Below are positions 2,549 through 58,373 of a stretch of DNA of 64,000 nt, one piece after another. The position numbers and the translations under genes are program-made. The number at the start of each line of letters is the position of its first letter. Positions within the stretch are counted from its first letter, which is position 1. The stretch is from Escherichia phage U1G, in the sequence record NC_070872.1; one strand, written 5' to 3'. The notes beneath the pieces are model-generated. The model saw only the letters and a list, made by a program, of their open reading frames with translations, was not told the DNA's origin and made no database searches.

Positions 2549-3052
2549 ATGAACCAGATACCTCAGCACACACTTAGTGATGAACAACTCATGCGTGAGT
2601 ATGACCGTATTCAGGCGCAGGCATTTCTCGGACGTAGTGCAGCATTTTTTGGTTCATTACTGTGTAGTCTTAAGTTCTCATGGAAACGTGAAGACTGCCC
2701 CACTGCATGTACTGATGGAATAGAACTCCATTTCAACCCAGACTTCTTTATCTGGATGTGTCCAGATGCAAGAGAAACAGTGCTAATGCACGAACTCTGG
2801 CATGTGGCATATCTGCATGGCATCCGTCGTGGAAGCCGTGACCCAGAGGTCTGGAACCAGGCATGTGACCACTTCATTAATCTTCAGTTAGAAGAAGATG
2901 GATATAAGTTCACTGGTATCGACAAAGGCATTTGCAAAGACCCTCAATACAAAGGGTGGGTCGAAGAAGACATCTACGATGACCTGATGAAGAACCCTCA
3001 GAAAAGGCAGAAGCCGTCAGGGGTGCTGGAGCAGGTCTTGCTGGTGACATGA
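2549..3052 (+). CDS. VWA-partner protein, N-terminal metallopeptidase-like domain (HExxH, DUF2201-like)
   Basis: HELWH motif; directly downstream of the MoxR ATPase; probably one gene with 3049..3723 (frame break). Confidence 0.5.
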   Translation: MNQIPQHTLSDEQLMREYDRIQAQAFLGRSAAFFGSLLCSLKFSWKREDCPTACTDGIELHFNPDFFIWMCPDARETVLMHELWHVAYLHGIRRGSRDPEVWNQACDHFINLQLEEDGYKFTGIDKGICKDPQYKGWVEEDIYDDLMKNPQKRQKPSGVLEQVLLVT

Positions 3053-3723
3053 AATCTCCCACTTCGGGGCAGTCCCAGGGTGCTGTCGTCAACAACGTAG
3101 TACGAGCAATGCAGAGCCAGAAAATGGCTGGTGGACAGATGCCCGGTAAGGGTGCTGGTCGTATGGAAGAGGTTATTACCCAATTCCTTAAACCAGTGGT
3201 TCCATGGCAGGAAGTCCTCATGAACTTCTTTACCGACATTGACGATACTCATTATACGTGGGCCAGACCTAACCGTCGTTTTACTGACATCTATCTACCT
3301 TCCATGGAAGATGATGAAGGACGCTTACGACACTTAGCCTACTTTGAAGATGTATCTGGTTCTATTAGTAGTGCAGATTCTCTGCGATTTAACTCAGAGG
3401 TTGCCTACGTTAAGAGCCAGTTCAATCCTAAGAAGATGTCCCTAATTACCTTCGACGATATTATTCAAGAAGAGATAGACATCACTGAAGAAGATACTTT
3501 TGAAGAGATTAAGATTACTGGTCGTGGTGGTACAAACCTGGAACCAGTACGTGATTGGATTATTAAGAATAAGCCAACCGCTGCAATCATATTCTCTGAT
3601 ATGTATGTTCGTCCTATGGAAGAATTACCATTTGATATTCCTATCATCTGGTGTGTTCTGAATAATCCCAATGCTACCGTACCTTTTGGGGAGGTAGTTC
3701 ATATCCCTAAAGGAATGAAATAA
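3049..3723 (+). CDS. von Willebrand factor A (VWA) domain protein, C-terminal part
   Basis: VWA-like fold signature; -1 frame is open back to 2983 through a Gly/Ala linker, suggesting fusion with 2549..3052. Confidence 0.5.
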   Translation: MKSPTSGQSQGAVVNNVVRAMQSQKMAGGQMPGKGAGRMEEVITQFLKPVVPWQEVLMNFFTDIDDTHYTWARPNRRFTDIYLPSMEDDEGRLRHLAYFEDVSGSISSADSLRFNSEVAYVKSQFNPKKMSLITFDDIIQEEIDITEEDTFEEIKITGRGGTNLEPVRDWIIKNKPTAAIIFSDMYVRPMEELPFDIPIIWCVLNNPNATVPFGEVVHIPKGMK

Positions 3724-4229
3724 TGGTTGTTAATGGTAATTCTCTATACTGTTCATCTCAGTTGCTGGATATCCCAGACCGCAAGATATCAGAGCACGGT
3801 GTAAGCTATGGATTGGGTGAAGCTGGTTACGATATTCGTATCAAACAAGATATTACCTTCTATCGCTTATTTGGGTTGATTCCAATGGTGAAGGTCGTTG
3901 ATGGAAACAAAGTATCACGCCATCTCGGTAAATTCACCTTGGCTTCAGCAATTGAGAAGTTCAACATGTCTCCGTCCTGCGTAGCCATCGTTCATGATAA
4001 GTCTACATGGGCAAGACGTGCATTATCAGTGTTCAATACCGTAATAGAACCAGGATGGAAAGGGTATCTTACCCTCGAACTGGTCTACCATGGTCGTAAG
4101 AAATTGCATATCCCGGCTGGTGCTGGGATAGCTCAAGTATTATTTCATCTGGTTCAGGAACCTGCTAATTACAATGGCAAGTATCAGAACCAGGAAGATA
4201 AACCAGTAGCTGCTAGAAGCAGTAAATAA
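3723..4229 (+). CDS. dCTP deaminase / dUTPase-fold protein
   Basis: Motifs GYDIR and IEPGWKGYLTLEL typical of the dCTP deaminase/dUTPase beta-barrel family. Confidence 0.5.
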   Translation: MVVNGNSLYCSSQLLDIPDRKISEHGVSYGLGEAGYDIRIKQDITFYRLFGLIPMVKVVDGNKVSRHLGKFTLASAIEKFNMSPSCVAIVHDKSTWARRALSVFNTVIEPGWKGYLTLELVYHGRKKLHIPAGAGIAQVLFHLVQEPANYNGKYQNQEDKPVAARSSK

Positions 4230-4238
4230 GGAAAACCC

Positions 4239-4448
4239 ATGTCAGTATTTCAAGTAACTCATGCAACCTCAGAAGTACGCTTAACTATTAATGCTGCAAA
4301 TGTAATTGCGGTGGAACAGATTCCACTGTCTGATTGTGCACGTATTGTATTTGTAAATGATAGTGCTATGGAAACCAAAGAAACCTATCGTTCAGTACGT
4401 AATTATCTGAAGAAAGCTCTTGCTCCTGCAAGTAAAGATGCTGAGTAA
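4239..4448 (+). CDS. hypothetical protein
   Basis: 69-aa ORF, tight spacing with neighbours. Confidence 0.35.
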   Translation: MSVFQVTHATSEVRLTINAANVIAVEQIPLSDCARIVFVNDSAMETKETYRSVRNYLKKALAPASKDAE

Positions 4449-4485
4449 GTAGCTGCCTAAATAGCCCAGCATAGTTGGGCTATTT

Positions 4486-4764: not shown

Positions 4765-4872
4765 CTAACCTAAGCATCATTGCATAGTGGTGCTTGTGGA
4801 AGTTACTTCCAGCTCATTGCTTATCCATCTCCTAACCCAAGCCCACCTAACCCGTGGGCTTTTTTATTTACA

Positions 4873-5112
4873 GGTACTGTTATGTTTCAAAATAGACGAG
4901 GTAAATCAGTCCTACATGATATGGACTTTAGTAAGCTGGAAGAAAGGCTAATTGCACACGCAGGCATTCATGACTCAGTAGATGTTACTGTTTCTAAGGT
5001 TGAATTAAAGAATCTGGAGAATATGCTCTCCAAGATGAAACAAACATTAATTCATGGATGGTCAGGTAGGCAGGTATTTGTTGATACTTACATTCCCCGG
5101 AACCTCATCTGA
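4873..5112 (+). CDS. hypothetical protein (frame continues to 5279 after a single-base frame break)
   Basis: Likely start MFQNRRGK; -1 frame open from 5085 to 5279 reads as protein; C4 run at 5095..5098. Confidence 0.3.
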   Translation, partial: GTVMFQNRRGKSVLHDMDFSKLEERLIAHAGIHDSVDVTVSKVELKNLENMLSKMKQTLIHGWSGRQVFVDTYIPRNLI

Positions 5113-5278
5113 AATCTAAGGTAGACAGGATCATAGATAAGTTCTGGCTTAACCCATGCGGCGATGATACACAACTTTACCTGGCTCAAATACAAAAGAA
5201 TCCACGTACTAAGGATGTATTCAAAGGAAAGAGCACTACTCATCATTACCCCTGGTATAGAAGAGGTAGTAAATACTA

Positions 5279-5722
5279 ATGCGTATCCCATTCCTACGGA
5301 AAAGGGAACGAAATCCTATTCTTTATAATAAAGGCATAGAGGATGAGTATGAACTCAACCGTAAAGCTCGTTCCTACACAACAAAATTATTCATGGGGTC
5401 TAACAACCCTGATAGGTTATTGGACTTTGTTTTTGAGCAAGTCTTTATCATATACAGCTTAGCTATGTCTGCTGGTTCACAAGAAGTAAGTGATAAGGCA
5501 AGAGATGCTCTCTGTATGCTTCGTAGGGAGTATGAAGCCCTTATGTATGAAGACTTGTACTCCTTTAAAAAAGAAACCGCTGTAGCGTGCTCTGTGGCCC
5601 TTACCGAAGGTATAGCAGTATTACAGGAACTACCCCGTAGTGAGTTTAAGCTGGTATATGTTCAGGTTAAGAAGATTACAGAAAACCGTAGTGGTATCAC
5701 CAACTATCTAAGGTCATTCTAA
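5279..5722 (+). CDS. hypothetical protein
   Basis: 147-aa ORF; stop overlaps thyX start. Confidence 0.4.
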   Translation: MRIPFLRKRERNPILYNKGIEDEYELNRKARSYTTKLFMGSNNPDRLLDFVFEQVFIIYSLAMSAGSQEVSDKARDALCMLRREYEALMYEDLYSFKKETAVACSVALTEGIAVLQELPRSEFKLVYVQVKKITENRSGITNYLRSF

Positions 5723-6666: not shown

Positions 6667-6678
6667 TACAGTAAACCT

Positions 6679-6706
6679 AAGACCTCCTCCGGGAGGTCTT
6701 TTTTGG
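6679..6706 (+). terminator. rho-independent terminator after thyX
   Basis: 9-bp GC-rich stem aagacctcc / ggaggtctt, loop tccg, followed by a T-run. Confidence 0.55.
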
Positions 6707-6733
6707 TTTCAATTAACTCTTTTGGGAGGGCAT

Positions 6734-7455: not shown

Positions 7456-7498
7456 TAGTCATAACCAAGAAGCAACATTTAATCTGGAGAGTAAATAA

Positions 7499-10066: not shown

Positions 10067-10070
10067 TCTG

Positions 10071-12193: not shown

Positions 12194-12589
12194 ATGAGTA
12201 AAGTATTCAGAAGTAATCGCAAAGCAACTGATGAAGACATCATTCGTATGAATGCTGTTGGGCTGTCCCTCGCAACTATCGCTAAGACGTTGGGGGTTCA
12301 CCCCACTACGGTTACTTTGCGATTGCGTTCTTTAAACATTGAACCAGCCGACACACGTCGGACGTTCATGGAAAACGTATTACGTCCTTTACCAACCCAT
12401 GTGGCTGATTGGCTATCAGAACAAGTTGGTCCTGCTTATGAAATTCGTTCATATGTAAGGGACTTGATTCTGGAGGCATATAATAATCGCCACCTTAACC
12501 AAGAGAGTGAGCATGACAAGTTCATCCGTTTGTACGCTGGCAAATACGGAAGCCTGGTTCCGGAAAGCAGTACCAAATCCGACGAGTAA
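12194..12589 (+). CDS. hypothetical helix-turn-helix protein
   Basis: HTH-like LSLATIAKTLGVHPTTV; ORF track gives 12164 start. Confidence 0.35.
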   Translation: MSKVFRSNRKATDEDIIRMNAVGLSLATIAKTLGVHPTTVTLRLRSLNIEPADTRRTFMENVLRPLPTHVADWLSEQVGPAYEIRSYVRDLILEAYNNRHLNQESEHDKFIRLYAGKYGSLVPESSTKSDE

Positions 12590-12770
12590 GAATATTAGTA
12601 CCCAGATTGGTTGTCATCTGGAAGAAGTAGTAGAGATGCTAGACGAGTTATACGCTAACTCAGAAGATGCTTACGATATTCTTCACAATGCCATTGCAGC
12701 ATTAACCGAATTGTCTGATTTAATGAAAAAGATGACAAAGAGGTATATGCACCGAACAGCCATCGTTTAG
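12507..12770 (+). CDS. hypothetical protein, possibly MazG-like NTP pyrophosphohydrolase (N-terminal part)
   Basis: EE..E-type motif HLEEVVEMLDEL; -1 frame stays open from 12719 to 12957 with no start codon, implying a frame break at the A5 run 12726..12730. Confidence 0.3.
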   Translation: MSMTSSSVCTLANTEAWFRKAVPNPTSKNISTQIGCHLEEVVEMLDELYANSEDAYDILHNAIAALTELSDLMKKMTKRYMHRTAIV

Positions 12771-12970
12771 CTATCCTTGATAGTCTTGCTGACCAGATTG
12801 TTACAGCAACCGGCGTCGGTACTTTCCTTGGGATGAATGTCCCTGGAGCATTGAATGAAGTCAATCGCTCTAACTATTCTAAATTTGAAGATGGAGAACC
12901 TGTCTTCAATGAGAACAAGAAAGTCATGAAGGGTAAAGACTACACTCCCCGGATTTAACCTCATTCGTAT

Positions 12971-12994
12971 AGCCCCAGTAGGGGCTTTTCTTCT
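12971..12994 (+). terminator. rho-independent terminator
   Basis: Stem agcccc / ggggct, loop agta, followed by ttttcttct. Confidence 0.55.
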
Positions 12995-15352: not shown

Positions 15353-17167
15353 ATGCGTTACATCACCTCTCAGGATACTGGTAAGTATCCTATTGCTATC
15401 CTCGGTCATCAAATCCGAAGGGAGGAGATGATTAAAACCTATCTGCTGCCTTATGACCTAAGTATGGAAGACTTCATCTTTATTGAACTTCATTCTGCCC
15501 CCGGCAAGAAAACTCCTGCAAGAGAGATTAAGGAGTTCATACAGCAGGAACTGCAACAAGTACTGGATGATGCAGAGACTCAATACATTATCTGTACCGA
15601 TTCTGACTACTTCAAAATACTGACTAAAGAAGCTAAAGCAGAGGCTAACCTCGGCTATGTTTGTGACTCAGTATGGGGTAAGCAGAAGGTTATCTATGCA
15701 CCTAGCTACAGACAGGTCTTTTATGACCCTCCTGTAGTGAAATCCAAGATTGCTCAGGGTATGGATGCATTACTTAACCACATACGTGGGCAGTATGCTG
15801 AACCAGGTCAAGGAATCATTGAGTTTGAAGCCTATCCGGATACTCCCGAGAAGATTAAAGCCTGGCTAGACCAGTTGCTTGAGATGAATAAGCCATTGGC
15901 TATAGACATCGAAGCATTCGGTTTAAAGCACTATAACGCCGGTATAGGGACAATTACATTCTGTTGGAGTAAAACACAAGGCATAGCCTTTAACGTGGAC
16001 TACGAGCCGATTCCTGGAGCTACTGAAGCACCATACGGGCGTATCAACCGTAATGATATTGTTCGAAACCTTCTGCGTGAGTTCTTCATTAAGTACACCC
16101 AACGGCAGATGTATCACAACATTAGCTATGATGTGTACATACTTATCTATCAGTTATTCATGGATAATCTGATTGATACAGAGGGACTACTACATGGCAT
16201 GGACATCATGCTGCGTAATTGGGACTGTACTAAGTTAATCACCTATCTGGCTACTAACAGTTGTGCAGGCAATCATCTTAGTCTAAAAGAGCAGGCTCAG
16301 GAGTATGCTGGTAACTATGCTCAGGATGATATCAAAGACATACGTCTTATTCCTAATGAGCAACTGTTACGCTACAACCTCATTGATGGTTTGTGTACTT
16401 GGTACACATACGAGAAGCACTGGGATACTCTCATTGCCGATGACCAACTTGATGTTTACAACAGCATCTTTAAACCAGCCTGTGAAGACATTATTCAGAT
16501 GCAGTTAACCGGTATGCCCATGAATATGGAAACCGTTAACCAAGTAGCTGAAGAAATGGAAACTGACAGGAACCAGGCTCTGAAAACTATTCGTGAGTCT
16601 AACCTCATGAAGAACTTTACCCTGATGCTTCGTCAGGAATGGGTAGACGATAAGAATGCTAAGCTTAAGAAGAAGCAGGTAACACTAGCTGATTGTGACA
16701 TTGAGTTTAATCCTAACTCTGGCCCACAACTACAGAAGCTGTTATTTGACTATATCGGCTTACCGGTTCTTGGTCTTACTAAGAGCAAGCAACCTGCTAC
16801 TGACGGTGACACTATTAAAGCACTGCGTACACATACGCAGAGTGAAGATGTTAAGGAACTGCTCAATGCACTTATCGACTATAAGCTCGTGGATAAGATT
16901 ATCACTAGCTTTATACCAGCTTTCAGGAATGCCCAACCGGGACCAGATGGCTGGCACTACCTGTTCGGTAACCTCAATCTGGGAGGCACAGTCTCCGGTA
17001 GGTTATCGGCTTCAGAGCCAAATCTACAAACAATTCCATCCGGCTCTAAATATGCCAAGAAGATTAAGAAATGCTTCGAAGCTCCACCTAGTTGTTACTT
17101 GCCAAACAGGACCAAGCTGGATACATTAATCCAGTCCCTGAAAAATACAATTAGTGGTGCCAAATGA
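15353..17167 (+). CDS. family-A DNA polymerase, N-terminal part (3'-5' exonuclease and start of polymerase domain)
   Basis: Exo motif LAIDIEAFGL; polymerase segment GRLSASEPNLQTIP...KKCFEAPP stops just before motif A; functional exon probably ends near 17089. Confidence 0.7.
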   Translation: MRYITSQDTGKYPIAILGHQIRREEMIKTYLLPYDLSMEDFIFIELHSAPGKKTPAREIKEFIQQELQQVLDDAETQYIICTDSDYFKILTKEAKAEANLGYVCDSVWGKQKVIYAPSYRQVFYDPPVVKSKIAQGMDALLNHIRGQYAEPGQGIIEFEAYPDTPEKIKAWLDQLLEMNKPLAIDIEAFGLKHYNAGIGTITFCWSKTQGIAFNVDYEPIPGATEAPYGRINRNDIVRNLLREFFIKYTQRQMYHNISYDVYILIYQLFMDNLIDTEGLLHGMDIMLRNWDCTKLITYLATNSCAGNHLSLKEQAQEYAGNYAQDDIKDIRLIPNEQLLRYNLIDGLCTWYTYEKHWDTLIADDQLDVYNSIFKPACEDIIQMQLTGMPMNMETVNQVAEEMETDRNQALKTIRESNLMKNFTLMLRQEWVDDKNAKLKKKQVTLADCDIEFNPNSGPQLQKLLFDYIGLPVLGLTKSKQPATDGDTIKALRTHTQSEDVKELLNALIDYKLVDKIITSFIPAFRNAQPGPDGWHYLFGNLNLGGTVSGRLSASEPNLQTIPSGSKYAKKIKKCFEAPPSCYLPNRTKLDTLIQSLKNTISGAK

Positions 17168-17820
17168 TAGGAAAGAAATTTAATAGATTGACTGTAGTCA
17201 GGTTCAGTCACAAAGACAAATACTATGCAAAGCATTGGGAATGCCTTTGTGACTGTGGGAATACTACTATAGTCAACAATCAAAAATTAAAGAGTGGTCA
17301 TACAAGAAGTTGTGGATGTTTACACAAAGAATGCCTACGTAACTATAAAGATGGTCGTTCTAAGGAACTACTATATAAGGTTTACTACGGCATCCTTGAC
17401 CGCTGCCATAATGAAAAGTGTTCCACTTATTACAAATATGGGGCTAAGGGCATAAGTGTTTGCGATGAGTGGAAAAATTCATACGAAACTTTCCGAGATT
17501 GGGCATTATCTTCTGGTTATGCAGCAGGTCTTAGTATCGACAGGATTGATGCCTATAAAGGATATTCTCCAGACAACTGTAGATGGGCAAATAGAAGTAC
17601 CCAACAAACTAACAAAAGGGTTTGGAGTACAACTCCTTACGTTAGCTACAGTAAGTCAAAAAATAAATGGGTAGGTAGAATTACCCATTTGGGTAAGAGA
17701 ATAGAAATCCGGGTAGATAGAGATCTAGATACTGTTATGAATGCAGTTATTGCTTATGTATTAGCTAATAACTTGGTTGAACAGGAGAAGGTACTTCGTA
17801 ATGCAGGACTTATTAAATAA
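17164..17820 (+). CDS. putative homing endonuclease inserted in the DNA polymerase gene
   Basis: N-terminal GKKFNRLTVV and Cys/His cluster, AP2-like C-terminal segment; sits exactly between polymerase motif-A halves. Confidence 0.5.
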   Translation: MIGKKFNRLTVVRFSHKDKYYAKHWECLCDCGNTTIVNNQKLKSGHTRSCGCLHKECLRNYKDGRSKELLYKVYYGILDRCHNEKCSTYYKYGAKGISVCDEWKNSYETFRDWALSSGYAAGLSIDRIDAYKGYSPDNCRWANRSTQQTNKRVWSTTPYVSYSKSKNKWVGRITHLGKRIEIRVDRDLDTVMNAVIAYVLANNLVEQEKVLRNAGLIK

Positions 17821-18772
17821 ATTAGTTAGCATAAAGGATAGAGTAACCCTGGATGACTATGACGAGTTAATACAATTAGCTAGTAAATATGGCATGCAGG
17901 AACAAGTATCTGAATGCTTTGACTATGAGGGTGGATGGTTGTTTTGTGGGCTAGACTTTGCGTCCTTAGAGGATCGCATATCAGCCCTAACAACCAAAGA
18001 CCCTAATAAATTGCGTGTGTATACTGACGGGTTTGACGGTCATTCACTCAGAGCTAAATTTTATTTCGGTGAACAAATGCCGGATATTGATGACTCTGTA
18101 GAAAGCATCAACTCTATACAGAAAAAATATAAAGCCTTACGTAGCGAATCGAAAGCACCTACTTTCTTACTGACCTACGGCGGAACTTATATGGGCTTAA
18201 TGAAAAACTGTGGCTTCTCGGAAGAGAAGGCTAAATTAATTGAGTCCAGATACCACGAAATGTATACGGTTAGTGATGCCTGGGTTCAGGCTAAGCTAGA
18301 CGAAGCTGCTAAGACTGGTTATGTAACTGCTGCATTTGGTTTGAGAGTGCGTACTCCTTTACTGGCTCAGGTTTTACGTGGGACATGTAAGACCCCATAT
18401 GAAGCAGAAGCTGAAGGCAGGACTGCTGGTAATGCATTAGGTCAAAGCTGGTGTCTACTGAATAATCGTGCTGGCTCAGAGTTTATGCGTAAAGTCAGAA
18501 CCAGTGAGTTCAGATTAGATATACGTCCTTGTATTCACATTCATGATGCCCAATACTTCATGATTCGTGACAACATGGATACCTTGCAGTACACGAACAA
18601 GCACTTGGTTGAAGCCGTTAACTGGCAAGACCATCCTGATATTGCTCATCCAGAAGTTGGTTTGGGTGGGGAACTATCCTTGTTTTACCCAACGTGGGCT
18701 AACGAGATTGAAATTCCAAATCACGCTACCCCAGATGAAGTTCATCAAATAATTCAAAAGGCATTCGCATGA
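17777..18772 (+). CDS. family-A DNA polymerase, C-terminal part (motifs A, B, C)
   Basis: Motif A GGWLFCGLDFASLEDRI, motif B KAPTFLLTYGG, motif C HIHDAQ; real exon probably begins near 17900. Confidence 0.7.
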   Translation: MNRRRYFVMQDLLNKLVSIKDRVTLDDYDELIQLASKYGMQEQVSECFDYEGGWLFCGLDFASLEDRISALTTKDPNKLRVYTDGFDGHSLRAKFYFGEQMPDIDDSVESINSIQKKYKALRSESKAPTFLLTYGGTYMGLMKNCGFSEEKAKLIESRYHEMYTVSDAWVQAKLDEAAKTGYVTAAFGLRVRTPLLAQVLRGTCKTPYEAEAEGRTAGNALGQSWCLLNNRAGSEFMRKVRTSEFRLDIRPCIHIHDAQYFMIRDNMDTLQYTNKHLVEAVNWQDHPDIAHPEVGLGGELSLFYPTWANEIEIPNHATPDEVHQIIQKAFA

Positions 18773-40615: not shown

Positions 40616-40863
40616 TGAAGGGTCAACCCCTGAAACAATGCACCAGATGCCAAAGCATTACGATACTCAGTAGGGTCTTGATACTGCATAGCATTCATCA
40701 TGACGGCATTGCCAGCCTCCTGCTTGGCAGCGTTCTGGAAATTACCCAGTGCATCACTTAAGCCGGAGGTGGCATTACCAATCATGTTGCCAAATGTGCG
40801 AATGCTGTCACCAACTCCGGAGAAGTTAGGTGCATAAACATTACGCCATGTAATTTGAGCCAT
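40609..40863 (-). CDS. N-terminal part of the same virion protein
   Basis: 84-aa ORF; junction reads ...ALASGALFQG/VDPSLVSQRTLQ after a one-base correction. Confidence 0.4.
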   Translation of the reverse strand: MAQITWRNVYAPNFSGVGDSIRTFGNMIGNATSGLSDALGNFQNAAKQEAGNAVMMNAMQYQDPTEYRNALASGALFQGLTLHW

Positions 40864-50695: not shown

Positions 50696-50697
50696 AG

Positions 50698-51225
50698 TTA
50701 TTCCTGTTCAAAAAGTTTACGGTCAGCCTGAATCTGTTTACCCAACTCAATTAGTTGGCTGTCACGGAGTCTAACAGTTGCCCGGAGTTCTTCAACCAAA
50801 CGTCTGCCTTCTTCAAGACTGCTGTCGAGTTTGGCTGCATGGCTTGCAAGACTTCTGCACTCAAGGGTTCCGGCTTCGGCTTGACGTTTATATACCGATG
50901 CTCGTCTTTCAGACTGTTGCATCCGGCTGTCATAATCACTGCTAACGCGAGCAAGCTCGCTTGCGTAATTACTCTCAGCCGTCTGCAACCGAGAAGTGAG
51001 TAACCCGACTTCATAACTATGGTTTCTTTGGAGAGCATCGTATTTGTCCTGTAATTTTTGTATTGCCTTTTGGTCTTCAACCTTTTGGTTATCCCACTTC
51101 TTTTGAACAGTAGACTGCCCATTGGAATTACCCCAAAAGTAAATGGTGGCCCCAAGGACCACCACCAGAAGATAAGGCCAACCTTTAGAGATTAGCATCT
51201 TCATTACATGCCTCCAGTGGCACAT
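50698..51225 (-). CDS. i-spanin (Rz-like)
   Basis: N-terminal TM helix [16 protein letters not shown] followed by coiled-coil-like periplasmic domain; adjacent to the endolysin. Confidence 0.55.
50751..51014 (-). CDS. o-spanin (Rz1-like lipoprotein) embedded in the i-spanin gene
   Basis: Alternate frame inside the i-spanin: [32 protein letters not shown] with lipobox Cys, Pro-rich mature part. Confidence 0.45.
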   Translation of the reverse strand: MKSGYSLLGCRRLRVITQASLLALAVIMTAGCNSLKDEHRYINVKPKPEPLSAEVLQAMQPNSTAVLKKADVWLKNSGQLLDSVTAN

Positions 51226-51819
51226 TGCCTATTCGGTTAGCTACCCAACCATACGTAAAGTCTGGCATGTTTAATGAGGTATAGTGGTTTAGTTGTTTAG
51301 CATCAAGCAGCTTAATCATTACCTGACATGCTGCAACTTTGCCTCGTTTTTTCTGTAATGCTTTATAAGCATTAACAGTACTTGCACCGACTTTACCATC
51401 AACCTGTATTTTAGGGTAGTCTTTGCCATCACGGGACATTTCATTAAGGGATAACTGCAACCACTTAGCCGGACGGGTTACACCAGTATTAACACCAGCA
51501 TCTACCAGCTTATGCGTTACAGCAGGAGATATATCAGCGAAGGCTACGAAGTTAGGCTTAAGTACGTAGTCATCAATGTATATCTCAGCAGCCATCTCCT
51601 TAGATAAACCTTTCATAGAACCACCCCAACCATATTCAGTAGCCAGAACCTCCTTATGAGACTTAGCTACCGATTGGGTAATACCATGATTAGTTTCCCC
51701 ACCTGGGTCACGAGGATTGTTTACATAACCCCTTCCATATAGAACACTGCCCCCAGGATAGCAGCGACAACCCCTCCCACTGCACCACCTTTTGCAGCAA
51801 GTTTCTGTTTAGCTTTCAT
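51185..51819 (-). CDS. endolysin, glycoside hydrolase family 108-like N-acetylmuramidase with Gly/Ala-rich N-terminal hydrophobic (SAR-like) segment
   Basis: Short ORF from ATG 51819 reads MKAKQKLAAKGGAVGGVVAAILGAVFYMEG; one extra base at run 51729..51732 gives GGYVNNPRDPGGETNHGIT (GH108 signature) continuing into ORF 51185..51616. Confidence 0.55.
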
Positions 51820-52052
51820 GAGAATTTTCCTTTGGACGGAACCGTATTAATCTGCCTATGATGTTTAAGGCAAACAGTGCGATTGCAATATTGGAACCAT
51901 GGGGAATATCTTCCAGGATGTGACGAGGTAATCCTGTCACCATTGGTTGGATGATATCTACAGCAGAAAATAGAATTAAACCAAACGTACTAATTTGAAC
52001 GGATGCCCACTTCCAGGACTTCTTCCAGTTAGGTACTAACTCAAACTTTCTT

Positions 52053-52382
52053 TTAGCCTGCGAACCATGCGAATATCTCCCGTCTTGCAGCAGCCAATAC
52101 ACCAATAATTGCACCTGCTCCAGCCCATACCCACTTACCGAAAATTCCAGCACCAACAACTTTATGCTTAATGGTGATGAACTCTTCAATAGTAGGCTCA
52201 TTTTTAGCTAAACTATCCTCCACATTTTTCAGTCTATTACCTATGTCATTGATTGAATCCCGCAGTTCTCCTAGAGTTTCCTCCAGTTTCTCACGGTCCT
52301 GTCTGTCTCTTGTCTGGTTCTCAAACAGAGTCTTCAATCGTTCCTCCAGTCTGACTAGAAGCAGTTCACCCGATTCATTCAT
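52053..52382 (-). CDS. putative membrane protein (holin candidate): coiled-coil N-terminus and C-terminal TM helix
   Basis: C-terminal VVGAGIFGKWVWAGAGAIIGVLAAA; first gene of the lysis cluster; the +1 frame downstream (to 51809) encodes two more TM helices but has no start codon. Confidence 0.35.
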   Translation of the reverse strand: MNESGELLLVRLEERLKTLFENQTRDRQDREKLEETLGELRDSINDIGNRLKNVEDSLAKNEPTIEEFITIKHKVVGAGIFGKWVWAGAGAIIGVLAAARREIFAWFAG

Positions 52383-52640: not shown

Positions 52641-53174
52641 TTACTGCTTCAAGCCATATACAATAATATCTGCACCTAATGTAGTCCACGCTTCGTCACC
52701 ACGAGAACTTGCGCAGTTAACCGTAAACCCAGAAGGGGTTTGGTTAGTAACGCTAAATACAGGGGCAATACTCTGCAATGCACCAATACCCCCATTAAAG
52801 GTTACGGCTACACGATAATCCAGTAAGTTAATAGGTAGTGTTACTTCAGTACTACCAGCGGAACCAGTAGAGCGGGTGATAGATATACCCTTACGATAGA
52901 TGAATTGCCCATTACGCAAACCAGATAAAGTGGTGTTATCGGAGAGTGAGTCCACAATATCCCCAGCAACAATACCAATACCAGTTAAATCAGTATTAGT
53001 AATGATTCGTACACCACCTTCCTTGGTTCTTTCTAGTACCCTGGTTCCAGAAGCCAGACTGTATTTACCAGTTAATGTACTACGACAGGTAACGTTAGTA
53101 AGGTCAAAATAGTTATTAGAGCTGCTGGCATCATTAATAAGGTAAGAGAAGTTAACACATCGCACATTACTCAT
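52641..53174 (-). CDS. tail spike A, C-terminal part
   Basis: 177-aa ORF; frame is open upstream across the 53210 stop and joins ORF 53210..54010 after a one-base correction at 53220..53223. Confidence 0.5.
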   Translation of the reverse strand: MSNVRCVNFSYLINDASSSNNYFDLTNVTCRSTLTGKYSLASGTRVLERTKEGGVRIITNTDLTGIGIVAGDIVDSLSDNTTLSGLRNGQFIYRKGISITRSTGSAGSTEVTLPINLLDYRVAVTFNGGIGALQSIAPVFSVTNQTPSGFTVNCASSRGDEAWTTLGADIIVYGLKQ

Positions 53175-53209
53175 AGTAATTTGAGAATCTGAACCCTTAC
53201 TTGAAACAT

Positions 53210-54010
53210 CTACAAGATAGGGGTATTGGCTGTTTGGTATGGAGGGTAATTACCCGCATGATAATTAGAAATACCTAATGCAACCCTACCATCTATGTAG
53301 ATAGCAGAACCCGTTCCTGTATTTTCAGAACCACAATTATGCATACTAATGCTTCGGGTATCTGTAGTAGCGTTATCACCGGAACCACCGCCAAATACAT
53401 AACTCCAGCGGGTAGTATGGTCGCATGCACAATCAATAATTGAACTATAGCCACTAGCTAAGTAGTAACCACGATTAGCATAATCAACATAGCATTCTTT
53501 TATGTAGGTACTAGTACCGTCTTGGATATAGAACCCGGTATCCGTACAGTTACGAGCAATACACCGGGATATACGTTGAATCCATGAACCTTTATCAAAT
53601 ATACCAAACTTATAACCTTCAAAGAGGCAATCTGATACGTAACTGTTCTCCGTTATACTAAAATAGATACCGTAGTCAGCATTGACTGTAGTTGTAAAGC
53701 GAATACCTGAAATACGAGCATACTTACTCTGATTAGTATCTGTTAGTACAACAATAGCAGCATTTACGTTAACATCCACCCCGTAAGCATCTGGCTCAGT
53801 TATACCTGTCTTAGCTAAGGTAGTTAATTCAATAATTGCATTACCACCTTGTCCTTCAATTTCATAGTTATAAAAGCCTAAATTGCGATACAACAAGGGT
53901 TTAGTAATAATGTACTTCTTGGATGGAATCACCAACTTAGTTCGATTCAGTTGACAGTAATCCATTGCTGCTTGAATGGCTTCAGTATCATCAGTAACAC
54001 CATCCCCCAT
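53210..54010 (-). CDS. tail spike A, right-handed beta-helix (pectate-lyase-like) domain
   Basis: MGDGVTDDTEAIQAAMDYC motif typical of beta-helix tailspikes/depolymerases, repeated Gly/Asn-rich rungs. Confidence 0.6.
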   Translation of the reverse strand: MGDGVTDDTEAIQAAMDYCQLNRTKLVIPSKKYIITKPLLYRNLGFYNYEIEGQGGNAIIELTTLAKTGITEPDAYGVDVNVNAAIVVLTDTNQSKYARISGIRFTTTVNADYGIYFSITENSYVSDCLFEGYKFGIFDKGSWIQRISRCIARNCTDTGFYIQDGTSTYIKECYVDYANRGYYLASGYSSIIDCACDHTTRWSYVFGGGSGDNATTDTRSISMHNCGSENTGTGSAIYIDGRVALGISNYHAGNYPPYQTANTPIL

Positions 54011-54201
54011 AGCACCAAATACTTGCGGGGTAACATAGTGTATATACTTATTAAGTAGTTCCTCTTTCAGGTATGCGTCGGATATAGCAACCCAATTAGC
54101 ATCCCCAACAGGGGATGATCCAGGAGCTACAGTAACGGGTAGTGCACCCTGGTAGGTGTATCCAGTACCATTGTAAACGAGTATGTCATTCTTAGTATTT
54201 A

Positions 54202-54525
54202 CTATGGAACCGGTGGAGAACGTGCCAGGTAGGGTAGTATACTCCCCCTGCTTTTCCCAAGTTCCCCCAAATCAACAGTACCTGCTGAATGAACCAGGAT
54301 TGCTTGTTCATTCAGGCTTACAGCAGTGGTTCCTACCGGGAGTACGGGCAAAGAGTAAGCACGCTGAGTAGTCTTATCATAAATGACCTTGTATTCCCCT
54401 AAGTCTACACCTACAGCAAAGTAAACAACCTCATTCTGCTTAACTCCAAAGTGACGGGCTACTGCTTGTTTGTTGGTTAAGATTCCAGTGGAACCTTTAC
54501 CACCTTGTGAGAACATTTCGTTCAT
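54202..54525 (-). CDS. tail spike A, N-terminal part
   Basis: 107-aa ORF; one extra base at C5 run 54264..54268 joins it in frame with the beta-helix ORF (junction ...GTVDLGG TWEKQGEYTTLPG...AMGDGVTDD). Confidence 0.5.
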   Translation of the reverse strand: MNEMFSQGGKGSTGILTNKQAVARHFGVKQNEVVYFAVGVDLGEYKVIYDKTTQRAYSLPVLPVGTTAVSLNEQAILVHSAGTVDLGELGKSRGSILPYLARSPPVP

Positions 54526-54774: not shown

Positions 54775-56217
54775 TCACTTCCACCGCCCCTCCGCATGGT
54801 AGGCAGCAAACACCACAGTATCTGTTGCAGCCGCCGAGAGAGAGTGCCCTCTAACCCCGCCAATAGCCGTGTTGCTAATGCTGTCGATAGCAATCACACC
54901 ACGGCGGATATCAGTTGCCACGCCAGGAGTAACCTTGTATTGCAATGTGACAGTAGGTGGGGCAATAAACGTTGCCCCAAAAGTGATGGCTGGCCCAAGC
55001 GTTGTGTATGGGTCTGCAAATGTCCCCGCTCCAGATGCGATTCTACTGCCAAGGTTTTTGTCCCCATACGCCCGCATTGCCCCGGATGGTTCCTTAACCA
55101 CATACCCATCTCCTGCTGGGCCGCTGTATTCTGTCCCGCTAATGAGTGGCACGCCATCCGATGTATATGCCTTGGCCTTATTAGCAAATGTGCCAAAATC
55201 AATCGACGCATCAGAAACCTCGATCTCTGCACTCGGGGTGGTGAGGATACGGCTGGCGCCCTGGTTATTCAAAACCACACCAGCTGGCGCTCCCACGGAC
55301 AACTTACCATCGAGGTGAAACTCTCCGCCATTCCCAATAATCATGACCGGTCCTGGTAGCGATGAGAACTGCCTGAGGTCAAAGTCTAACTGCGCTGTTC
55401 TCTCCACCTCCAGTCTTACCTGTGATCCCAGTAGTGGTCGTGTGGAATCATAAACCGAGATGGAAATTGGCGCTGAAGCGGTAGGGGTGACGATCGGATA
55501 CGCACCATTTGAATTCTCGGTGATGAACTTCACCGTACCCTGGATCTTCACGTTGGCACTACCAATTATTAGTTGCCGCAGAGTGTTAGATCTGAAAACT
55601 GAATCCCGAAGTTTAACCCGAGCCCACCTGGCGTTTACGACCTCAAATGTACTGTGCAAGTCAGAATCAACAACGGTGATTGATGGCGTGTAGCGATCCA
55701 GCATCCCGGCAATACCGACGTTCTCGGTCAATACCAGCAATCCTGATCCCCCTATGCCGAAAGACTTGCACCCAATAACCCAGGAATCTATTCCGCGACC
55801 GCCGAATCCTGCTCCTGTTCCACCTTCAGCCTCACAGTCTAAAAATCGGATGTCGTATGCCGCATGGTGGGTGTCAAAATGGTCCGCCGTCGCACCATGC
55901 GATTTGCACCCGATAACCCGGCCACCCACTGTGTTTCCGCCAGAAAATGCCAACAGAGTATTCTCTGCGAGCGATACCCGCAGGGTGGTGTAGCTATGCC
56001 GGCATTTCCCGAACGTGCAGTTCTCTACGCGAGAGAAATAGCCGCCGTCACAAATTCCATAACCATTCTGCACCCCGGCTTCATTGTCAGAAAATTCCTG
56101 CATATTGCATTGGTTAATGTAAGCGTAGAGAGTTCCGTCCAGATAAATGCCAGAGCCGTAAGCGCGCGTCATATTCACACCCCGCACTACAGGCTTATGA
56201 TATGCCCTAATTGACAT
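54775..56217 (-). CDS. tail spike B, C-terminal module (GC-rich)
   Basis: 480-aa ORF of much higher GC than the rest of the window; upstream frame continues into ORF 56217..58373 after a one-base correction at T6 run 56278..56283. Confidence 0.55.
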   Translation of the reverse strand: MSIRAYHKPVVRGVNMTRAYGSGIYLDGTLYAYINQCNMQEFSDNEAGVQNGYGICDGGYFSRVENCTFGKCRHSYTTLRVSLAENTLLAFSGGNTVGGRVIGCKSHGATADHFDTHHAAYDIRFLDCEAEGGTGAGFGGRGIDSWVIGCKSFGIGGSGLLVLTENVGIAGMLDRYTPSITVVDSDLHSTFEVVNARWARVKLRDSVFRSNTLRQLIIGSANVKIQGTVKFITENSNGAYPIVTPTASAPISISVYDSTRPLLGSQVRLEVERTAQLDFDLRQFSSLPGPVMIIGNGGEFHLDGKLSVGAPAGVVLNNQGASRILTTPSAEIEVSDASIDFGTFANKAKAYTSDGVPLISGTEYSGPAGDGYVVKEPSGAMRAYGDKNLGSRIASGAGTFADPYTTLGPAITFGATFIAPPTVTLQYKVTPGVATDIRRGVIAIDSISNTAIGGVRGHSLSAAATDTVVFAAYHAEGRWK

Positions 56218-58373
56218 TACCGTTGGGCCATAAGTCTTCCCTTCCGGGTACTCGATGTTGCCGCCAACAAAACGGAATTTTTTGAAGTATCAACGAGCGC
56301 AACTCTGGCACCCCATGCAAGGCTGTACGGATTGACCACCGCAGTTTCTGCGTAATCCATCCCCTCAACGAACTGAAGCGGCTTATCCAATACCAGATTG
56401 GTAGTGGTGCTTCCAGCGCCGACGCGGGCATATTCCTGGATGCGGTATTTGTTGGAATTCCCAATCCTGGTGCGGTCTGCCGGATTCACTGCATTAGAAA
56501 TGATACGCACCCAATCACCGCGTTTCGGTGCGTTCGGCAGGTTGACTGCCAGATTTTTCGATCCAGCAACATAATCCGCAGTGAGCGGGTAGAGGGATGG
56601 GTTTGCATTACCTTCAGCAAAAAGCCAGGTATCGCCAGTATCAATAATATAATGCGCATTCCCGGCATCCCAATTCATATGCCCTGTAGTGGAAATCTGA
56701 GTTGTGAATTTGCGCGTAATTACATTTGGCTCATGGATTTTATTTTCCGGGCTTAAAGCCATCCAGTTCGCAGCCAACTGGGCGAACGGGGTTGTGTCAC
56801 TTGTACCATCTATCGGCGCACCCCAGTGGTCGAGGGTCGCCACGTGTGGAGGCTTAAAACCAAGAAGATCTGGAATGCTTGTCGCAGTGCTATCACGGAT
56901 GTATTCCAGTCCGCCTGCGATAACACTCATCCCATCGGCAATATTATTCCCTGGTGCGTAGCTGACTAATTCCGCCCGAGAGCCAAACCGAGCCAGTACA
57001 CCAACGCTCAACCAAGCTCCTACTCCAATACCACCAGTAGATGTAGGGGTTGATTTCTGTGAAACGGTATTCGCCAGCGCGCCATCCCAAATATAGCACT
57101 GCCCACCAGCGATATGCCAAACAGCATCAGTTGCACTGTTCACTGTGGCACCTTCTTCAAAGCTACCATCTACAAGTGTTAATCCCGCTTCCGCAAGACT
57201 ACGACGCCATAGTTCTCTGGTATTCTGCTGTTGGTAGGTATCTAGCAGAGTAACAGTAATATTCCCAGGAGAATAAGTTAATTGCCCATTTGAGACAGTG
57301 TTAATGTAAACATTGGCAGGTAGAGTAGGTAACCCATGTATACGTTGGGTAACTACATCGTAAAGTACCTTTTTACCATTAAGTACCTGAGTAGTGTCCG
57401 TGCTAAGAATTACCTCAGAATCTTTAACGTTAGTTGCACGAGCCACTACCTGAATAGTATGGTCTGCTATCTCAAGTACCTTAGCTTCCCCACCCAATTG
57501 AACAATTAAACGGTCATTCGTAGCCAAGGGTTCAGTAAGAATGATTCGATTGTTGTCTGAGTCAATCGTATAGGAGTTATTAGTTAACCCTTTATAGAAA
57601 CGTAAGCCATTCTTGTATACAGCAGGCACAGATCGGAAGGTATAAGGAATATCAATTACCTGTTCCCCACCTACAGCAGCACCCTGGTTGTACAACCAGT
57701 TAATAGTTACCCAATCAGAAACATTAGGATTATCAGGAGTTGCAGGAACACCTGTACGCATAACTACAACAAAGTCCCCTTGCTCCAAGGGAGTAGTAAA
57801 CTTAATCTCAAAGGTTAACGGGTCATACTCAAAATCGTAACCCTCAGTCTGCCAGTCACCATTAACAATCATGAATGGTACACCAGCCGTTTCATCCGGG
57901 ATACGAATGGTAGTCTCGCCACCAATGGCTGAACCAGAGTTATAAATCCACGGGATGTATCCACCATCACTAGAAGACTCACCACCACCGGATGAACCGG
58001 AAGTAGCTACTTTAATCCATGAACCCGTTGCAGTAGCATCATCTGGTAGGATGCCGGTACGGTCGCCCTCTACGTACAAGTAGTCAGTGACCTGACGGTC
58101 ACCAGCAGGGGTCTTGCCATAGATACGAGCAAAGGAAGCCTTAGTAGTTAACGCCTTAAGTTCTGCTTCTGATTGTACACCAAGTACCATTCCATACTGA
58201 TTCAGGAAGTCATAGATAAGTTTCAGGTTACCAAGGTTACAGTAAACAGTACGAACCACATGATAAGCATTACCTAGTAGTGCATCTACCATTGGGTCAT
58301 TGGAACTGTTTTGACAGTAAGGATTGGTCCAATCCTGATTTGCATCAAAGGGGGTATGTGCGTTCATCGCCAT
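56217..58373 (-). CDS. tail spike / tail fibre B, N-terminal anchor and central part
   Basis: 718-aa ORF; AT-rich N-terminal ~380 codons, GC-rich C-terminal ~340 codons. Confidence 0.6.
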   Translation of the reverse strand: MAMNAHTPFDANQDWTNPYCQNSSNDPMVDALLGNAYHVVRTVYCNLGNLKLIYDFLNQYGMVLGVQSEAELKALTTKASFARIYGKTPAGDRQVTDYLYVEGDRTGILPDDATATGSWIKVATSGSSGGGESSSDGGYIPWIYNSGSAIGGETTIRIPDETAGVPFMIVNGDWQTEGYDFEYDPLTFEIKFTTPLEQGDFVVVMRTGVPATPDNPNVSDWVTINWLYNQGAAVGGEQVIDIPYTFRSVPAVYKNGLRFYKGLTNNSYTIDSDNNRIILTEPLATNDRLIVQLGGEAKVLEIADHTIQVVARATNVKDSEVILSTDTTQVLNGKKVLYDVVTQRIHGLPTLPANVYINTVSNGQLTYSPGNITVTLLDTYQQQNTRELWRRSLAEAGLTLVDGSFEEGATVNSATDAVWHIAGGQCYIWDGALANTVSQKSTPTSTGGIGVGAWLSVGVLARFGSRAELVSYAPGNNIADGMSVIAGGLEYIRDSTATSIPDLLGFKPPHVATLDHWGAPIDGTSDTTPFAQLAANWMALSPENKIHEPNVITRKFTTQISTTGHMNWDAGNAHYIIDTGDTWLFAEGNANPSLYPLTADYVAGSKNLAVNLPNAPKRGDWVRIISNAVNPADRTRIGNSNKYRIQEYARVGAGSTTTNLVLDKPLQFVEGMDYAETAVVNPYSLAWGARVALVDTSKNSVLLAATSSTRKGRLMAQR

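What the first reader, a model, noticed from the sequence alone, without database searches (positions are those of the whole stretch)
2983..56283. At least ten genes broken by single-base frame shifts at homopolymer runs, all consistent with one missing base
Adding one base to a homopolymer gives a continuous, protein-like reading frame at each of these sites: VWA protein (A4 3002..3005 or G4 3020..3023); hypothetical gene (C4 5095..5098); MazG-like gene (A5 12726..12730); Sak4-like ATPase (G5 23542..23546); SSB-like gene (A5 24032..24036); small ORF (A6 26095..26100); virion protein (C4 40627..40630); GH108 endolysin (51729..51732); tail spike A (53220..53223 and C5 54264..54268); tail spike B (T6 56278..56283). 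Every case has the same direction (downstream frame = upstream frame minus 1 in the gene's orientation). The uniformity points to systematic homopolymer under-calling rather than programmed frameshifting or pseudogenisation, so automated annotation will over-split genes. I cannot exclude that a subset is biologically real.
Basis: seen in the sequence. Interest (0 to 1): 0.5.

Follow-up and report, generated by a model that had tools for sequence, protein, structure and literature searches.

The report
Nanopore homopolymer errors break phage genes
The many "broken" genes in this phage genome (Escherichia phage U1G) are almost certainly not biology: they come from one missing base at each of about 16 short single-letter runs in an unpolished nanopore assembly, and they matter only because the faulty fragments are now in GenBank, RefSeq and a published analysis.

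Summary
The window is Escherichia phage U1G (MZ394712), a G7C-like Gamaleyavirus: seven exact gene fragments from the window are deposited as U1G proteins. The U1G paper says it was sequenced only on ONT MinION and assembled with Canu at 39x; it describes no polishing. Three of its coordinates are a neighbouring run (true sites: G4 3020-3023, A5 24025-24029, C5 54244-54248). It missed three coding sites (gp36 3' end 12947-12950, HNH ORF 20940, holin 52051-52054) and two non-coding ones (6699-6704, 26292-26296). Adding one base at 14 sites restores ORFs of exactly the relatives' lengths, 92-100% identical end to end to a relative where one spans the gene; tail spike B's distal part rests on three database homologs instead. 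Every alignable relative has one more base at each coding site that has a DNA-level relative. Against the closest relative, runs of 3-4 are never shortened (0/1649), runs of 5 in 7/61, of 6 in 3/11, of 7 in 1/1, and never lengthened. Isolated 1-bp indels are 14:0, against 1:1 to 5:2 between relatives. Programmed frameshifting fails (no slippery heptamer at 10/12 sites; no relative frameshifted). This is an artefact with low biological interest and practical curation value.

The parts
3020..3023 (+). G4 run, true length most likely G5. It splits gp25 (metallopeptidase + VWA-like, 2549-3723) into 167 + 224 aa.
   Evidence: Relatives have G5 or one extra base in 11/11 loci. Repair gives 391 aa, 98.5% identical end to end to PGN829.1. 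Pfam DUF2201_N + DUF2201. Both fragments are deposited as U1G proteins.
5095..5098 (+). C4 run, true C5. It breaks a 132-aa hypothetical gene (4882-5279).
   Evidence: PGN829.1 has C5; 2/2 relatives have one more base. The repaired ORF is 132 aa and 100% identical to the PGN829.1 ORF.
6699..6704 (+). T6 run in the thyX/gp31 intergenic spacer; all relatives have T7. Probable under-call with no coding effect.
   Evidence: All 13 alignable loci show T7. It is the only orthologous 7-run compared, and it is shortened.
12726..12730 (+). A5 run, true A6. First break in gp36 (NTP pyrophosphohydrolase-like, 12513-12972).
   Evidence: UE-S5a has A6. tblastn shows the frame switch at 12725-12767. Repair of both gp36 sites gives 153 aa, 98% identical to UE-S5a.
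12947..12950 (+). C4 run, true C5. Second break, near the 3' end of gp36.
   Evidence: 19/19 alignable loci have one more base; all three reference relatives have C5.
20939..20940 (+). Single missing G: the window reads CCTGAAAC where PGN829.1 reads CCTGGAAAC. It truncates an HNH_3+AP2 endonuclease ORF (20521-21008).
   Evidence: 4/4 alignable loci have one more base. The repaired ORF is 162 aa, 99.4% identical to the PGN829.1 ORF. Pfam HNH_3 + AP2. That the CCTGG motif is a Dcm site prone to ONT miscalls is my own knowledge.
23542..23546 (+). G5 run. Relatives read GGGGAG/GGGGTG/GGGGGG, so the true run is probably G6. It splits gp44 (AAA_24 ATPase, 23208-23959) into 133 + 139 aa.
   Evidence: 19/19 loci have one more base, and one relative has GGGGGG. 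The variable base is a third codon position (GGA/GGT/GGG = Gly). The repaired protein is 250 aa and 100% identical to PGN829.1.
24025..24029 (+). A5 run, true A6. It breaks gp45 SSB (24000-24796) after codon 9.
   Evidence: 13/13 loci have one more base, as A6 or AAAAGA. The repaired ORF is 265 aa, 97% identical to UE-S5a.
26095..26100 (+). A6 run. Relatives read AAACAAA/AAAGAAA/AAAAAAA, so the true run is probably A7. It breaks a 56-aa ORF (26024-26193; same 56-aa length as the G7C and PGN829.1 ORFs annotated at this position).
   Evidence: 10/10 loci have one more base, and one has A7. Repair gives a 56-aa ORF.
26292..26296 (+). C5 run in a non-coding region. Most relatives have C6. Probable under-call with no coding effect.
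   Evidence: 9/11 loci have one more base; the other two are divergent in sequence.
40627..40630 (-). C4 on + (G4 in the gene), true length 5. It splits virion protein gp51 (38900-40863) into 84 + 571 aa.
   Evidence: 12/12 loci have one more base. The repaired protein is 654 aa, 98% identical to PGN829.1.
51729..51732 (-). C4 on +, true length 5. It breaks endolysin gp61 (51185-51819) after about 29 codons; the deposited protein is a 143-aa internal-start fragment.
   Evidence: 12/12 loci have one more base. The repaired protein is 211 aa, 99.5% identical to PGN829.1. Pfam Glyco_hydro_108 + PG_binding_3. The 143-aa fragment clusters with 211-aa proteins (604-member cluster; 14 of the 15 listed members are 211 aa).
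52051..52054 (-). T4 on +, true T5. It breaks holin gp62 (51809-52068) after codon 5.
   Evidence: 12/12 loci have one more base. tblastn shows holin residues 6-86 in one frame and the start codon in another. Pfam DUF7940 on the repaired 86-aa protein.
53220..53223 (-). G4 on +, true G5. The 3'-proximal break in tail spike A (52641-54525).
   Evidence: PGN829.1 has G5. tblastn shows three frames for one 628-aa protein.
54244..54248 (-). C5 on +, true C6.
   Evidence: PGN829.1 has C6. Repair of both sites gives 628 aa, 99% identical end to end. The three fragments (107, 266, 177 aa) are deposited as separate U1G proteins.
56278..56283 (-). T6 on + (A6 in the gene), true length 7. It splits tail spike B (54775-58373) into 718 + 480 aa.
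   Evidence: Adding one base gives an uninterrupted 1199-aa ORF. Three homologs (96%, 73% and 46% identical) read ...DTSKKFRFVGGNIEYPEGKTYGP... across the junction, while the deposited U1G protein diverges after DTSK and stops 20 residues later. No DNA-level relative covers this site.

Best explanation
The window is the deposited genome of Escherichia phage U1G, a G7C-like N4 relative. It was assembled from Oxford Nanopore R9-era reads with no short-read correction and no polishing step described. The consensus dropped one base at about 16 places (about 1 per 4 kb), nearly all in single-letter runs whose true length is 5-7, and mostly G/C runs. Fourteen of these lie in 12 genes, so each gene reads as two or three fragments. 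The real phage almost certainly carries intact genes. Shown: the missing bases relative to all relatives, the length, base and direction dependence, the restoration of full-length proteins, and the sequencing method. Inferred: that the reads themselves are ambiguous at these runs.
For: Identity and method: seven exact fragment proteins from the window are deposited as U1G proteins on a 73,275-bp contig, and the 716-aa U1G tail spike is 100% identical. PMC10754912 states MinION SQK-LSK109, Guppy, Porechop, Canu 1.8, 39.12x and RAST, and mentions polishing only for the other two phages. Error signature against PGN829.1 at orthologous runs: run 3 0/1431, run 4 0/218, run 5 7/61, run 6 3/11, run 7 1/1 shortened by one, and none lengthened. 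G/C 5-runs 6/19 and G/C 6-runs 2/2, against A/T 5-runs 1/43. The window has no run of 7 or more; the relatives have 3-5 each. Asymmetry: isolated 1-bp indels are 14:0, 10:0 and 14:1 (window missing: relative missing), against 1:1, 5:2 and 3:2 between relatives. Population: at each of the 13 coding sites with a DNA-level relative, every alignable relative locus has one more base (11/11, 2/2, 1/1, 19/19, 4/4, 19/19, 13/13, 10/10, 12/12, 12/12, 12/12, 1/1, 1/1). Repair: one base at each of 14 sites gives ORFs of 391, 132, 153, 162, 250, 265, 56, 654, 211, 106 (86 annotated), 628 and 1199 aa, equal to the relatives' lengths where a relative spans the gene. Ten of them align end to end at 92-100% identity. 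Tail spike B's junction is bridged by three homologs. Biology: the paper reports plaques and a burst size of 124, which is implausible for a phage with broken holin, endolysin, SSB, gp51 and both tail spikes (inference). Precedent: long-read-only phage assemblies with homopolymer frameshifts that split one gene into three annotations (PMC10438801).
Against: No raw reads or independent high-accuracy sequence of U1G itself were available, so the true run lengths are inferred from relatives that are 91-97% identical. Four coding sites rest on a single DNA-level comparator (12726, 53220, 54244) or on protein homologs only (56278). Two sites (23542, 26095) need an extra assumption: a substitution creating a longer run that was then under-called. 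One site (20940) is not a long homopolymer. The residual error density (about 1 per 4 kb) looks lower to me than I would expect from a completely unpolished Canu consensus (my own expectation, not tested), so the processing may not be exactly as described. Some 224-aa gp25 fragments starting at the same internal ATG exist in other assemblies, and I could not inspect their contigs.
Confidence: 0.97

Rival explanations
1. Some or all of the breaks are real and are decoded by programmed -1 ribosomal frameshifting, or by transcriptional slippage at the runs, giving full-length proteins from frameshifted genes.
For: The required shift is -1 at every site. Two sites happen to form a 0-frame X XXY YYZ heptamer: A AAA AAG in the 56-aa ORF (by my own knowledge the classic E. 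coli dnaX-type slippery sequence) and A AAA AAT in tail spike B.
Against: Ten of the 12 coding sites tested have no slippery heptamer at the run; the G/C-run sites have none. No relative is frameshifted at any site: all carry the extra base in frame. Runs are only 4-6 long, and by my own knowledge transcriptional slippage needs about 8-9 or more A/T. The two heptamers are simply what a 6-A run looks like in that phase. A dozen independent recoding sites arising in one phage, none shared with relatives 94-97% identical, is not credible.
Confidence: 0.01
2. The breaks are real mutations: pseudogenisation, or a mutator or hypermutable-homopolymer phenotype in this isolate.
For: Homopolymers are also natural hotspots for polymerase slippage. 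A few gp25 fragments of the same length exist in other assemblies.
Against: Holin, endolysin, SSB, gp44, virion protein gp51 and both tail spikes would be inactivated, yet the phage plaques with a burst size of 124. Natural slippage gives both gains and losses, and here there are 14 losses and 0 gains. The sharp threshold at run length 5 or more and the G/C bias fit a base-calling signature. Substitution divergence around the sites is ordinary: repaired proteins are 92-100% identical.
Confidence: 0.015
3. Tail spike B is really two genes (718 aa + 480 aa) coupled by an overlapping TAATG stop/start, not one broken gene.
For: The two ORFs meet in a textbook TAATG overlap at 56215-56219.
Against: Homologs at 96%, 73% and 46% identity are continuous across the junction. 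The 20 residues before the stop in the 718-aa ORF match nothing, while the -1 frame matches perfectly from the A-run onward. The Met at the putative start is not conserved: P0002 reads PTILNIKAY.
Confidence: 0.01

Closest known systems
Homopolymer indel errors in long-read-only (ONT) phage assemblies, as described for przondoviruses in the HYPPA workflow paper (PMC10438801)
   Same: Single-base errors at homopolymers cause frameshifts that show up in coding regions. One gene (Toyotomi DNA polymerase) was split by two errors into three annotations, exactly as in tail spike A here. Short-read polishing corrects them.
   Different: Here the errors were never corrected and were deposited. They are all deletions, concentrated in G/C runs of true length 5-6, and they affect 12 genes in one record that also became a RefSeq entry.
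Intact orthologues in Gamaleyavirus genomes (G7C NC_015933.1, PGN829.1 NC_070871.1, UE-S5a PP175015.1)
   Same: Same gene order and 91-97% nucleotide identity. Every gene broken here is a single ORF there, with a length equal to the repaired U1G ORF.
   Different: They carry one more base at each site. Tail spike B's distal domain is not shared with them.
Programmed frameshifts in phage genes (lambda G/GT tail chaperone, T7 10A/10B), as listed in the Phage Annotation Guide (PMC8785237)
   Same: A -1 change of frame within a phage structural gene region. The guide names the three alternatives to consider: sequencing error, programmed frameshift and intron.
   Different: Those sites are conserved among relatives, use slippery heptamers and yield two functional products. 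Here no site is conserved and most lack a heptamer.
Genes genuinely split by homing-endonuclease inserts (DNA polymerase of PGN829.1; gp24 ATPase here)
   Same: They also make one gene look like two ORFs in automated annotation.
   Different: The two halves are in the same frame, separated by about 0.8-0.9 kb carrying an HNH ORF. The polymerase insert is 100% identical in PGN829.1. These are real features, not base-calling errors.

Membership tests
Sequencing artefact: ONT homopolymer under-calling in an unpolished assembly | The sequence was produced from nanopore reads without short-read correction | tested here: met
   The window is identified as U1G by seven exact deposited fragments. The paper states MinION + Guppy + Canu 1.8 at 39x, with no polishing described for U1G.
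Sequencing artefact: ONT homopolymer under-calling in an unpolished assembly | Errors are one-directional (deletions), unlike natural indel variation | tested here: met
   14:0, 10:0 and 14:1 against three relatives; controls between relatives give 1:1, 5:2 and 3:2.
Sequencing artefact: ONT homopolymer under-calling in an unpolished assembly | Error probability rises with run length | tested here: met
   0/1431 (3), 0/218 (4), 7/61 (5), 3/11 (6), 1/1 (7). The window has no run of 7 or more.
Sequencing artefact: ONT homopolymer under-calling in an unpolished assembly | Correcting the run restores a full-length conserved product | tested here: met
   All 12 genes regain an open reading frame; 11 regain exactly a relative's ORF length, and 10 of those align end to end at 92-100% identity. 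Tail spike B has no full-length relative and is supported by homologs bridging the junction.
Sequencing artefact: ONT homopolymer under-calling in an unpolished assembly | Raw reads show mixed or ambiguous run lengths at the sites, and accurate reads give n+1 | not testable with these tools
   No reads are available. The paper names only the GenBank accession for the phage.
Programmed -1 ribosomal frameshifting | Slippery heptamer X XXY YYZ in the upstream frame at the shift site | tested here: not met
   Present at 2 of 12 coding sites tested (A AAA AAG, A AAA AAT), both trivially due to a 6-A run, and absent at the other 10 (the SSB row was recomputed by hand after a start-coordinate error).
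Programmed -1 ribosomal frameshifting | The frameshift is conserved in related genomes | tested here: not met
   All alignable relatives are in frame at every site.
Programmed -1 ribosomal frameshifting | Downstream stimulatory structure or upstream SD-like element | not tested
   Not pursued once the two features above failed.
Transcriptional slippage recoding | A long A or T run (about 8-9 or more, by my own knowledge) | tested here: not met
   The longest run in the window is 6, and 9 of the 16 sites are G or C positions (8 in G/C runs of 4-5).
Real pseudogenes / natural frameshift mutations | Indels of both signs, not confined to long runs, tolerated because the genes are dispensable | tested here: not met
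   Only losses were seen. Eleven of 14 lie in runs that make up 1% of bases (P about 4e-20). The affected genes include holin, endolysin, SSB and both tail spikes of a phage that plaques normally.

The most novel reading that the evidence does not exclude
One or two of the A-run sites are real in the phage and are read through by -1 ribosomal slippage. The candidates are A AAA AAG in the 56-aa ORF at 26095-26100 and A AAA AAT in tail spike B at 56278-56283. In tail spike B this would give a short and a long product from one gene.
Probability: 0.01. Interest if true: 0.4.

Novelty: not a real feature. Interest (0 to 1): 0.1.

Why it matters
There is nothing new biologically. The practical value is curation. 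The U1G record carries at least 12 genes as fragments, and these fragments have GenBank, RefSeq (YP_) and, for five of the seven, UniRef accessions under misleading names: the two halves of the VWA protein are both called "HNH endonuclease", and the endolysin is a 143-aa "hypothetical protein". The U1G paper took the 107-aa piece as the phage's receptor-binding protein for machine-learning receptor prediction and noted that its homolog is 628 aa. That piece is only the first ~100 residues of the 628-aa tail spike. The second, 1199-aa tail spike, with a distal domain that has no homolog among 50,697 phage records, appears in two pieces in this sequence (only the 716-aa piece was found as a deposited protein). 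Anyone using this record for host-range, depolymerase or pangenome work will inherit these errors. The 14 one-base repairs listed here give a usable corrected gene set pending resequencing.

Tried and rejected
(1) tRNA loss as independent evidence of errors: ARAGORN and Rfam found no tRNA in the window, but also none in the PGN829.1 or G7C loci, so this is uninformative. (2) DNA-level relatives for the distal part of tail spike B: none by blastn or tblastn in the phage collection. The site was resolved with the large protein database instead. (3) Fetching the U1G contig through the look-up of encoding contigs: not on record. The intact 391-aa form dominates the listed members of its 799-member cluster. 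(6) DNA polymerase and gp24 ATPase splits as further frameshifts: rejected, because both halves are in the same frame and are separated by HNH inserts. (7) The absence of errors in the 10.7-kb vRNAP gene as an anomaly: it holds only 1 of the 27 G/C runs of 5 or more and 8 of the 83 A/T runs of 5 or more, so zero hits is unremarkable (P about 0.05 even under uniformity). (8) Fisher's test of 14:0 against pooled controls is only P = 0.04 because control counts are small. The stronger evidence is the run-length dependence and the enrichment.
Full report
WHAT THE WINDOW IS. The ORF map shows a 3590-aa ORF and an N4-like layout. Megablast places the window in Gamaleyavirus (G7C-like Schitoviridae); the closest records, PGN829.1, UE-S5a and others, are 91-97% identical. 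Seven exact protein fragments encoded in the window (107, 167, 224, 133, 143, 266 and 177 aa) are present in public databases as proteins of "Escherichia phage U1G" on a 73,275-bp contig, with GenBank QXV and RefSeq YP_ accessions. The 716-aa U1G "tail spike protein" is 100% identical to the window ORF at 56217-58373. The U1G paper (PMC10754912) gives accession MZ394712 and 73,275 bp at 43% GC. It states Oxford Nanopore MinION with SQK-LSK109, Guppy base-calling, Porechop, Canu 1.8, 39.12x coverage and RAST annotation. Polishing is described only for the two other phages in that paper.

CHECK OF THE OBSERVATION. I aligned the window to three complete relatives and listed every indel. Most non-multiple-of-3 indels are compensated pairs in divergent stretches. 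The uncompensated ones shared across relatives are single bases missing from the window. tblastn of the relatives' ORFs against the window shows one protein hitting two or three frames for gp25 VWA, a 132-aa hypothetical, gp36, an HNH ORF, gp44, gp51, the holin and tail spike A. It shows N-terminal truncation for SSB and endolysin. Tail spike B's distal domain has no relative in the phage collection. Adding one base to the run at 56278-56283 gives an uninterrupted 1199-aa ORF. Three database homologs (96%, 73% and 46% identity) read "...ALVDTSKKFRFVGGNIEYPEGKTYGP..." across the junction, whereas the deposited U1G protein diverges right after "DTSK" and stops 20 residues later. So all ten genes in the finding are confirmed.

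- In VWA the G4 at 3020-3023 is the site, not the A4.
- In SSB the site is 24025-24029, not 24032-24036.
- In tail spike A the second site is 54244-54248, not 54264-54268.
Five sites were missed: 12947-12950 (gp36 3' end), 20940 (HNH ORF), 52051-52054 (holin), and non-coding 6699-6704 and 26292-26296.

IS IT AN ARTEFACT? Six independent lines point the same way.
- Direction. Isolated 1-bp indels are 14:0 (missing in window: missing in relative) against PGN829.1, 10:0 against UE-S5a and 14:1 against G7C. The three relative-versus-relative pairs give 1:1, 5:2 and 3:2. The sign test for 14:0 gives 6e-5.
- Run-length dependence at orthologous runs against PGN829.1. Length 3: 0/1431 shortened. Length 4: 0/218. 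Length 5: 7/61. Length 6: 3/11. Length 7: 1/1. None is lengthened. The window has no run of 7 or more, whereas each relative has 3-5. Eleven of the 14 deletions fall in runs of 5 or more, which occupy 1.0% of bases (P about 4e-20).
- Base dependence. G/C 5-runs are shortened in 6/19 and G/C 6-runs in 2/2, against 1/43 for A/T 5-runs.
- Population. I fetched 122 related IMG/VR loci. At each of the 13 coding sites with a DNA-level relative, every alignable locus has exactly one more base than the window: 11/11, 2/2, 1/1, 19/19, 4/4, 19/19, 13/13, 10/10, 12/12, 12/12, 12/12, 1/1 and 1/1. Some loci come from the same genome, but the local sequence variants are diverse.
- Repair. One base at each of 14 sites yields ORFs of 391, 132, 153, 162, 250, 265, 56, 654, 211, 106 (86 as annotated), 628 and 1199 aa. 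Where a relative spans the gene these equal the relatives' lengths, and ten of them align end to end at 92-100% identity.
- Biology. The phage plaques with a burst size of 124. That is implausible if holin, endolysin, SSB, gp51 and both tail spikes were truly broken (inference).

TWO REFINEMENTS. At 23542-23546 most relatives read GGGGAG or GGGGTG, and at 26095-26100 they read AAACAAA or AAAGAAA, so these look like loss of a non-run base. One relative has GGGGGG and one has AAAAAAA. In gp44 the variable base is a third position of a Gly codon. The simplest reading is that U1G really has G6 and A7 and that both were under-called. The 20940 site is a lost G where the closest relative reads CCTGG. 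By my own knowledge that is the Dcm motif at which R9-era base-callers make systematic errors; I did not test this.

RIVALS. A -1 programmed frameshift would need a slippery heptamer. Only 2 of 12 coding sites have one in the 0 frame, and both are 6-A runs. No relative shares any frameshift. Transcriptional slippage is excluded by run lengths of 6 or less and by the G/C composition. Real mutation is contradicted by the one-sided direction, the sharp length threshold and the phage's viability. The neat TAATG overlap between the two tail spike B ORFs is coincidental, because homologs are continuous and the Met is not conserved.

GENUINE SPLITS TO KEEP APART. gp24 ATPase matches relatives at 607-924 and at 1804-2538, in the same frame. 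The 879-bp gap carries a NUMOD4 + HNH_3 + AP2 ORF and a full-length but sub-threshold group I intron match (RF00028, 23.7 bits, E = 0.0012). DNA polymerase is interrupted by a 909-bp HNH-containing insert that is 100% identical to the one in PGN829.1, with both halves in the same frame and no intron signal.

COMPARISON WITH WHAT IS KNOWN. This error mode is documented for long-read-only phage assemblies, including one gene split into three annotations by two homopolymer errors (PMC10438801). The Phage Annotation Guide lists sequencing error, programmed frameshift and intron as the three alternatives to test (PMC8785237). The present case is a plain example of the first.

VERDICT. It is not a biological feature, and scientific interest is low. 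The practical consequence is real. The broken fragments are in GenBank, RefSeq and (for most) UniRef. The U1G paper used the 107-aa N-terminal fragment of a 628-aa tail spike as the receptor-binding protein for its receptor prediction.

LIMITS. No reads of U1G itself were available. Four coding sites rest on one DNA comparator or on protein homologs only. I could not inspect a few other assemblies that hold same-length gp25 fragments.

Noticed in passing
window 607-2541 (insert 925-1803; ORF 1038-1607; RF00028 hit 1430-1740): gp24 ATPase is interrupted, in the same frame, by an 879-bp insert. The insert carries a NUMOD4 + HNH_3 + AP2 homing-endonuclease ORF and a full-length but sub-threshold group I intron match (23.7 bits, E = 0.0012). 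Among all fetched relatives only a 149-bp stretch of pSb-1 resembles the insert. It is probably a mobile group I intron, and the annotation will show two ATPase fragments for a real reason.
   Followed up: partly
window 15353-18772 (insert about 17093-17863; HNH ORF 17164-17820): DNA polymerase is split by an HNH-containing insert that is 100% identical over 909 bp to the one in PGN829.1. Both polymerase halves are in the same frame, and Rfam gives no intron signal even at E <= 1. This is a genuine split or intron-less endonuclease insertion, not a frameshift.
   Followed up: partly
window 54775-58373 (-): The repaired tail spike B (1199 aa) is a chimera. Residues 1-455 are gp66-like (88% identical to G7C). 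The distal ~736 residues have no tblastn match in 50,697 phage records, but they are 96% identical to an 889-aa protein on an unnamed 3.3-kb Logan contig that has a different N-terminus. This is evidence of receptor-binding module exchange.
   Followed up: partly
window 54202-54525 (-): This 107-aa ORF is the "tail spike protein (107 aa)" that the U1G paper used as the receptor-binding protein for machine-learning receptor prediction (OmpC / LPS O antigen). It is only the first ~100 residues of the 628-aa tail spike (91% identical to PGN829.1 gp51 residues 1-100).
   Followed up: yes
window 37867-37876 (vRNAP gene, - strand): There is a compensated pair against all three relatives: 2 extra bases (AC) at 37867 and 2 missing bases (GA) at 37876, which shifts about three codons inside the virion RNA polymerase. 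It could be real variation or a local consensus error; I did not resolve it.
   Followed up: no
clusters 2 and 7 (other Gamaleyavirus records): Other deposited relatives also carry fragmentary gp25 proteins: Bp4 and vB_EcoS_Uz-1 at 172 aa and pSb-1 at 204 aa, against 391 aa. Similar uncorrected frameshifts may exist in other public genomes of this genus. gp25 is also widely mislabelled as "HNH endonuclease".
   Followed up: no
window 28051-38823 (-): The 10.7-kb vRNAP gene has no frame break although it makes up 17% of the window. It contains only 1 of the 27 G/C runs of 5 or more and 8 of the 83 A/T runs of 5 or more, so it was simply a small target.
   Followed up: yes
window 28020-28045: In the bidirectional terminator hairpin downstream of vRNAP, one stem arm is C4 in the window (the opposite arm reads GGGG) where PGN829.1 and UE-S5a have C3, alongside other 1-bp differences in the same hairpin. 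This looks like real variation and shows that not every run-length difference in the window is an error.
   Followed up: no
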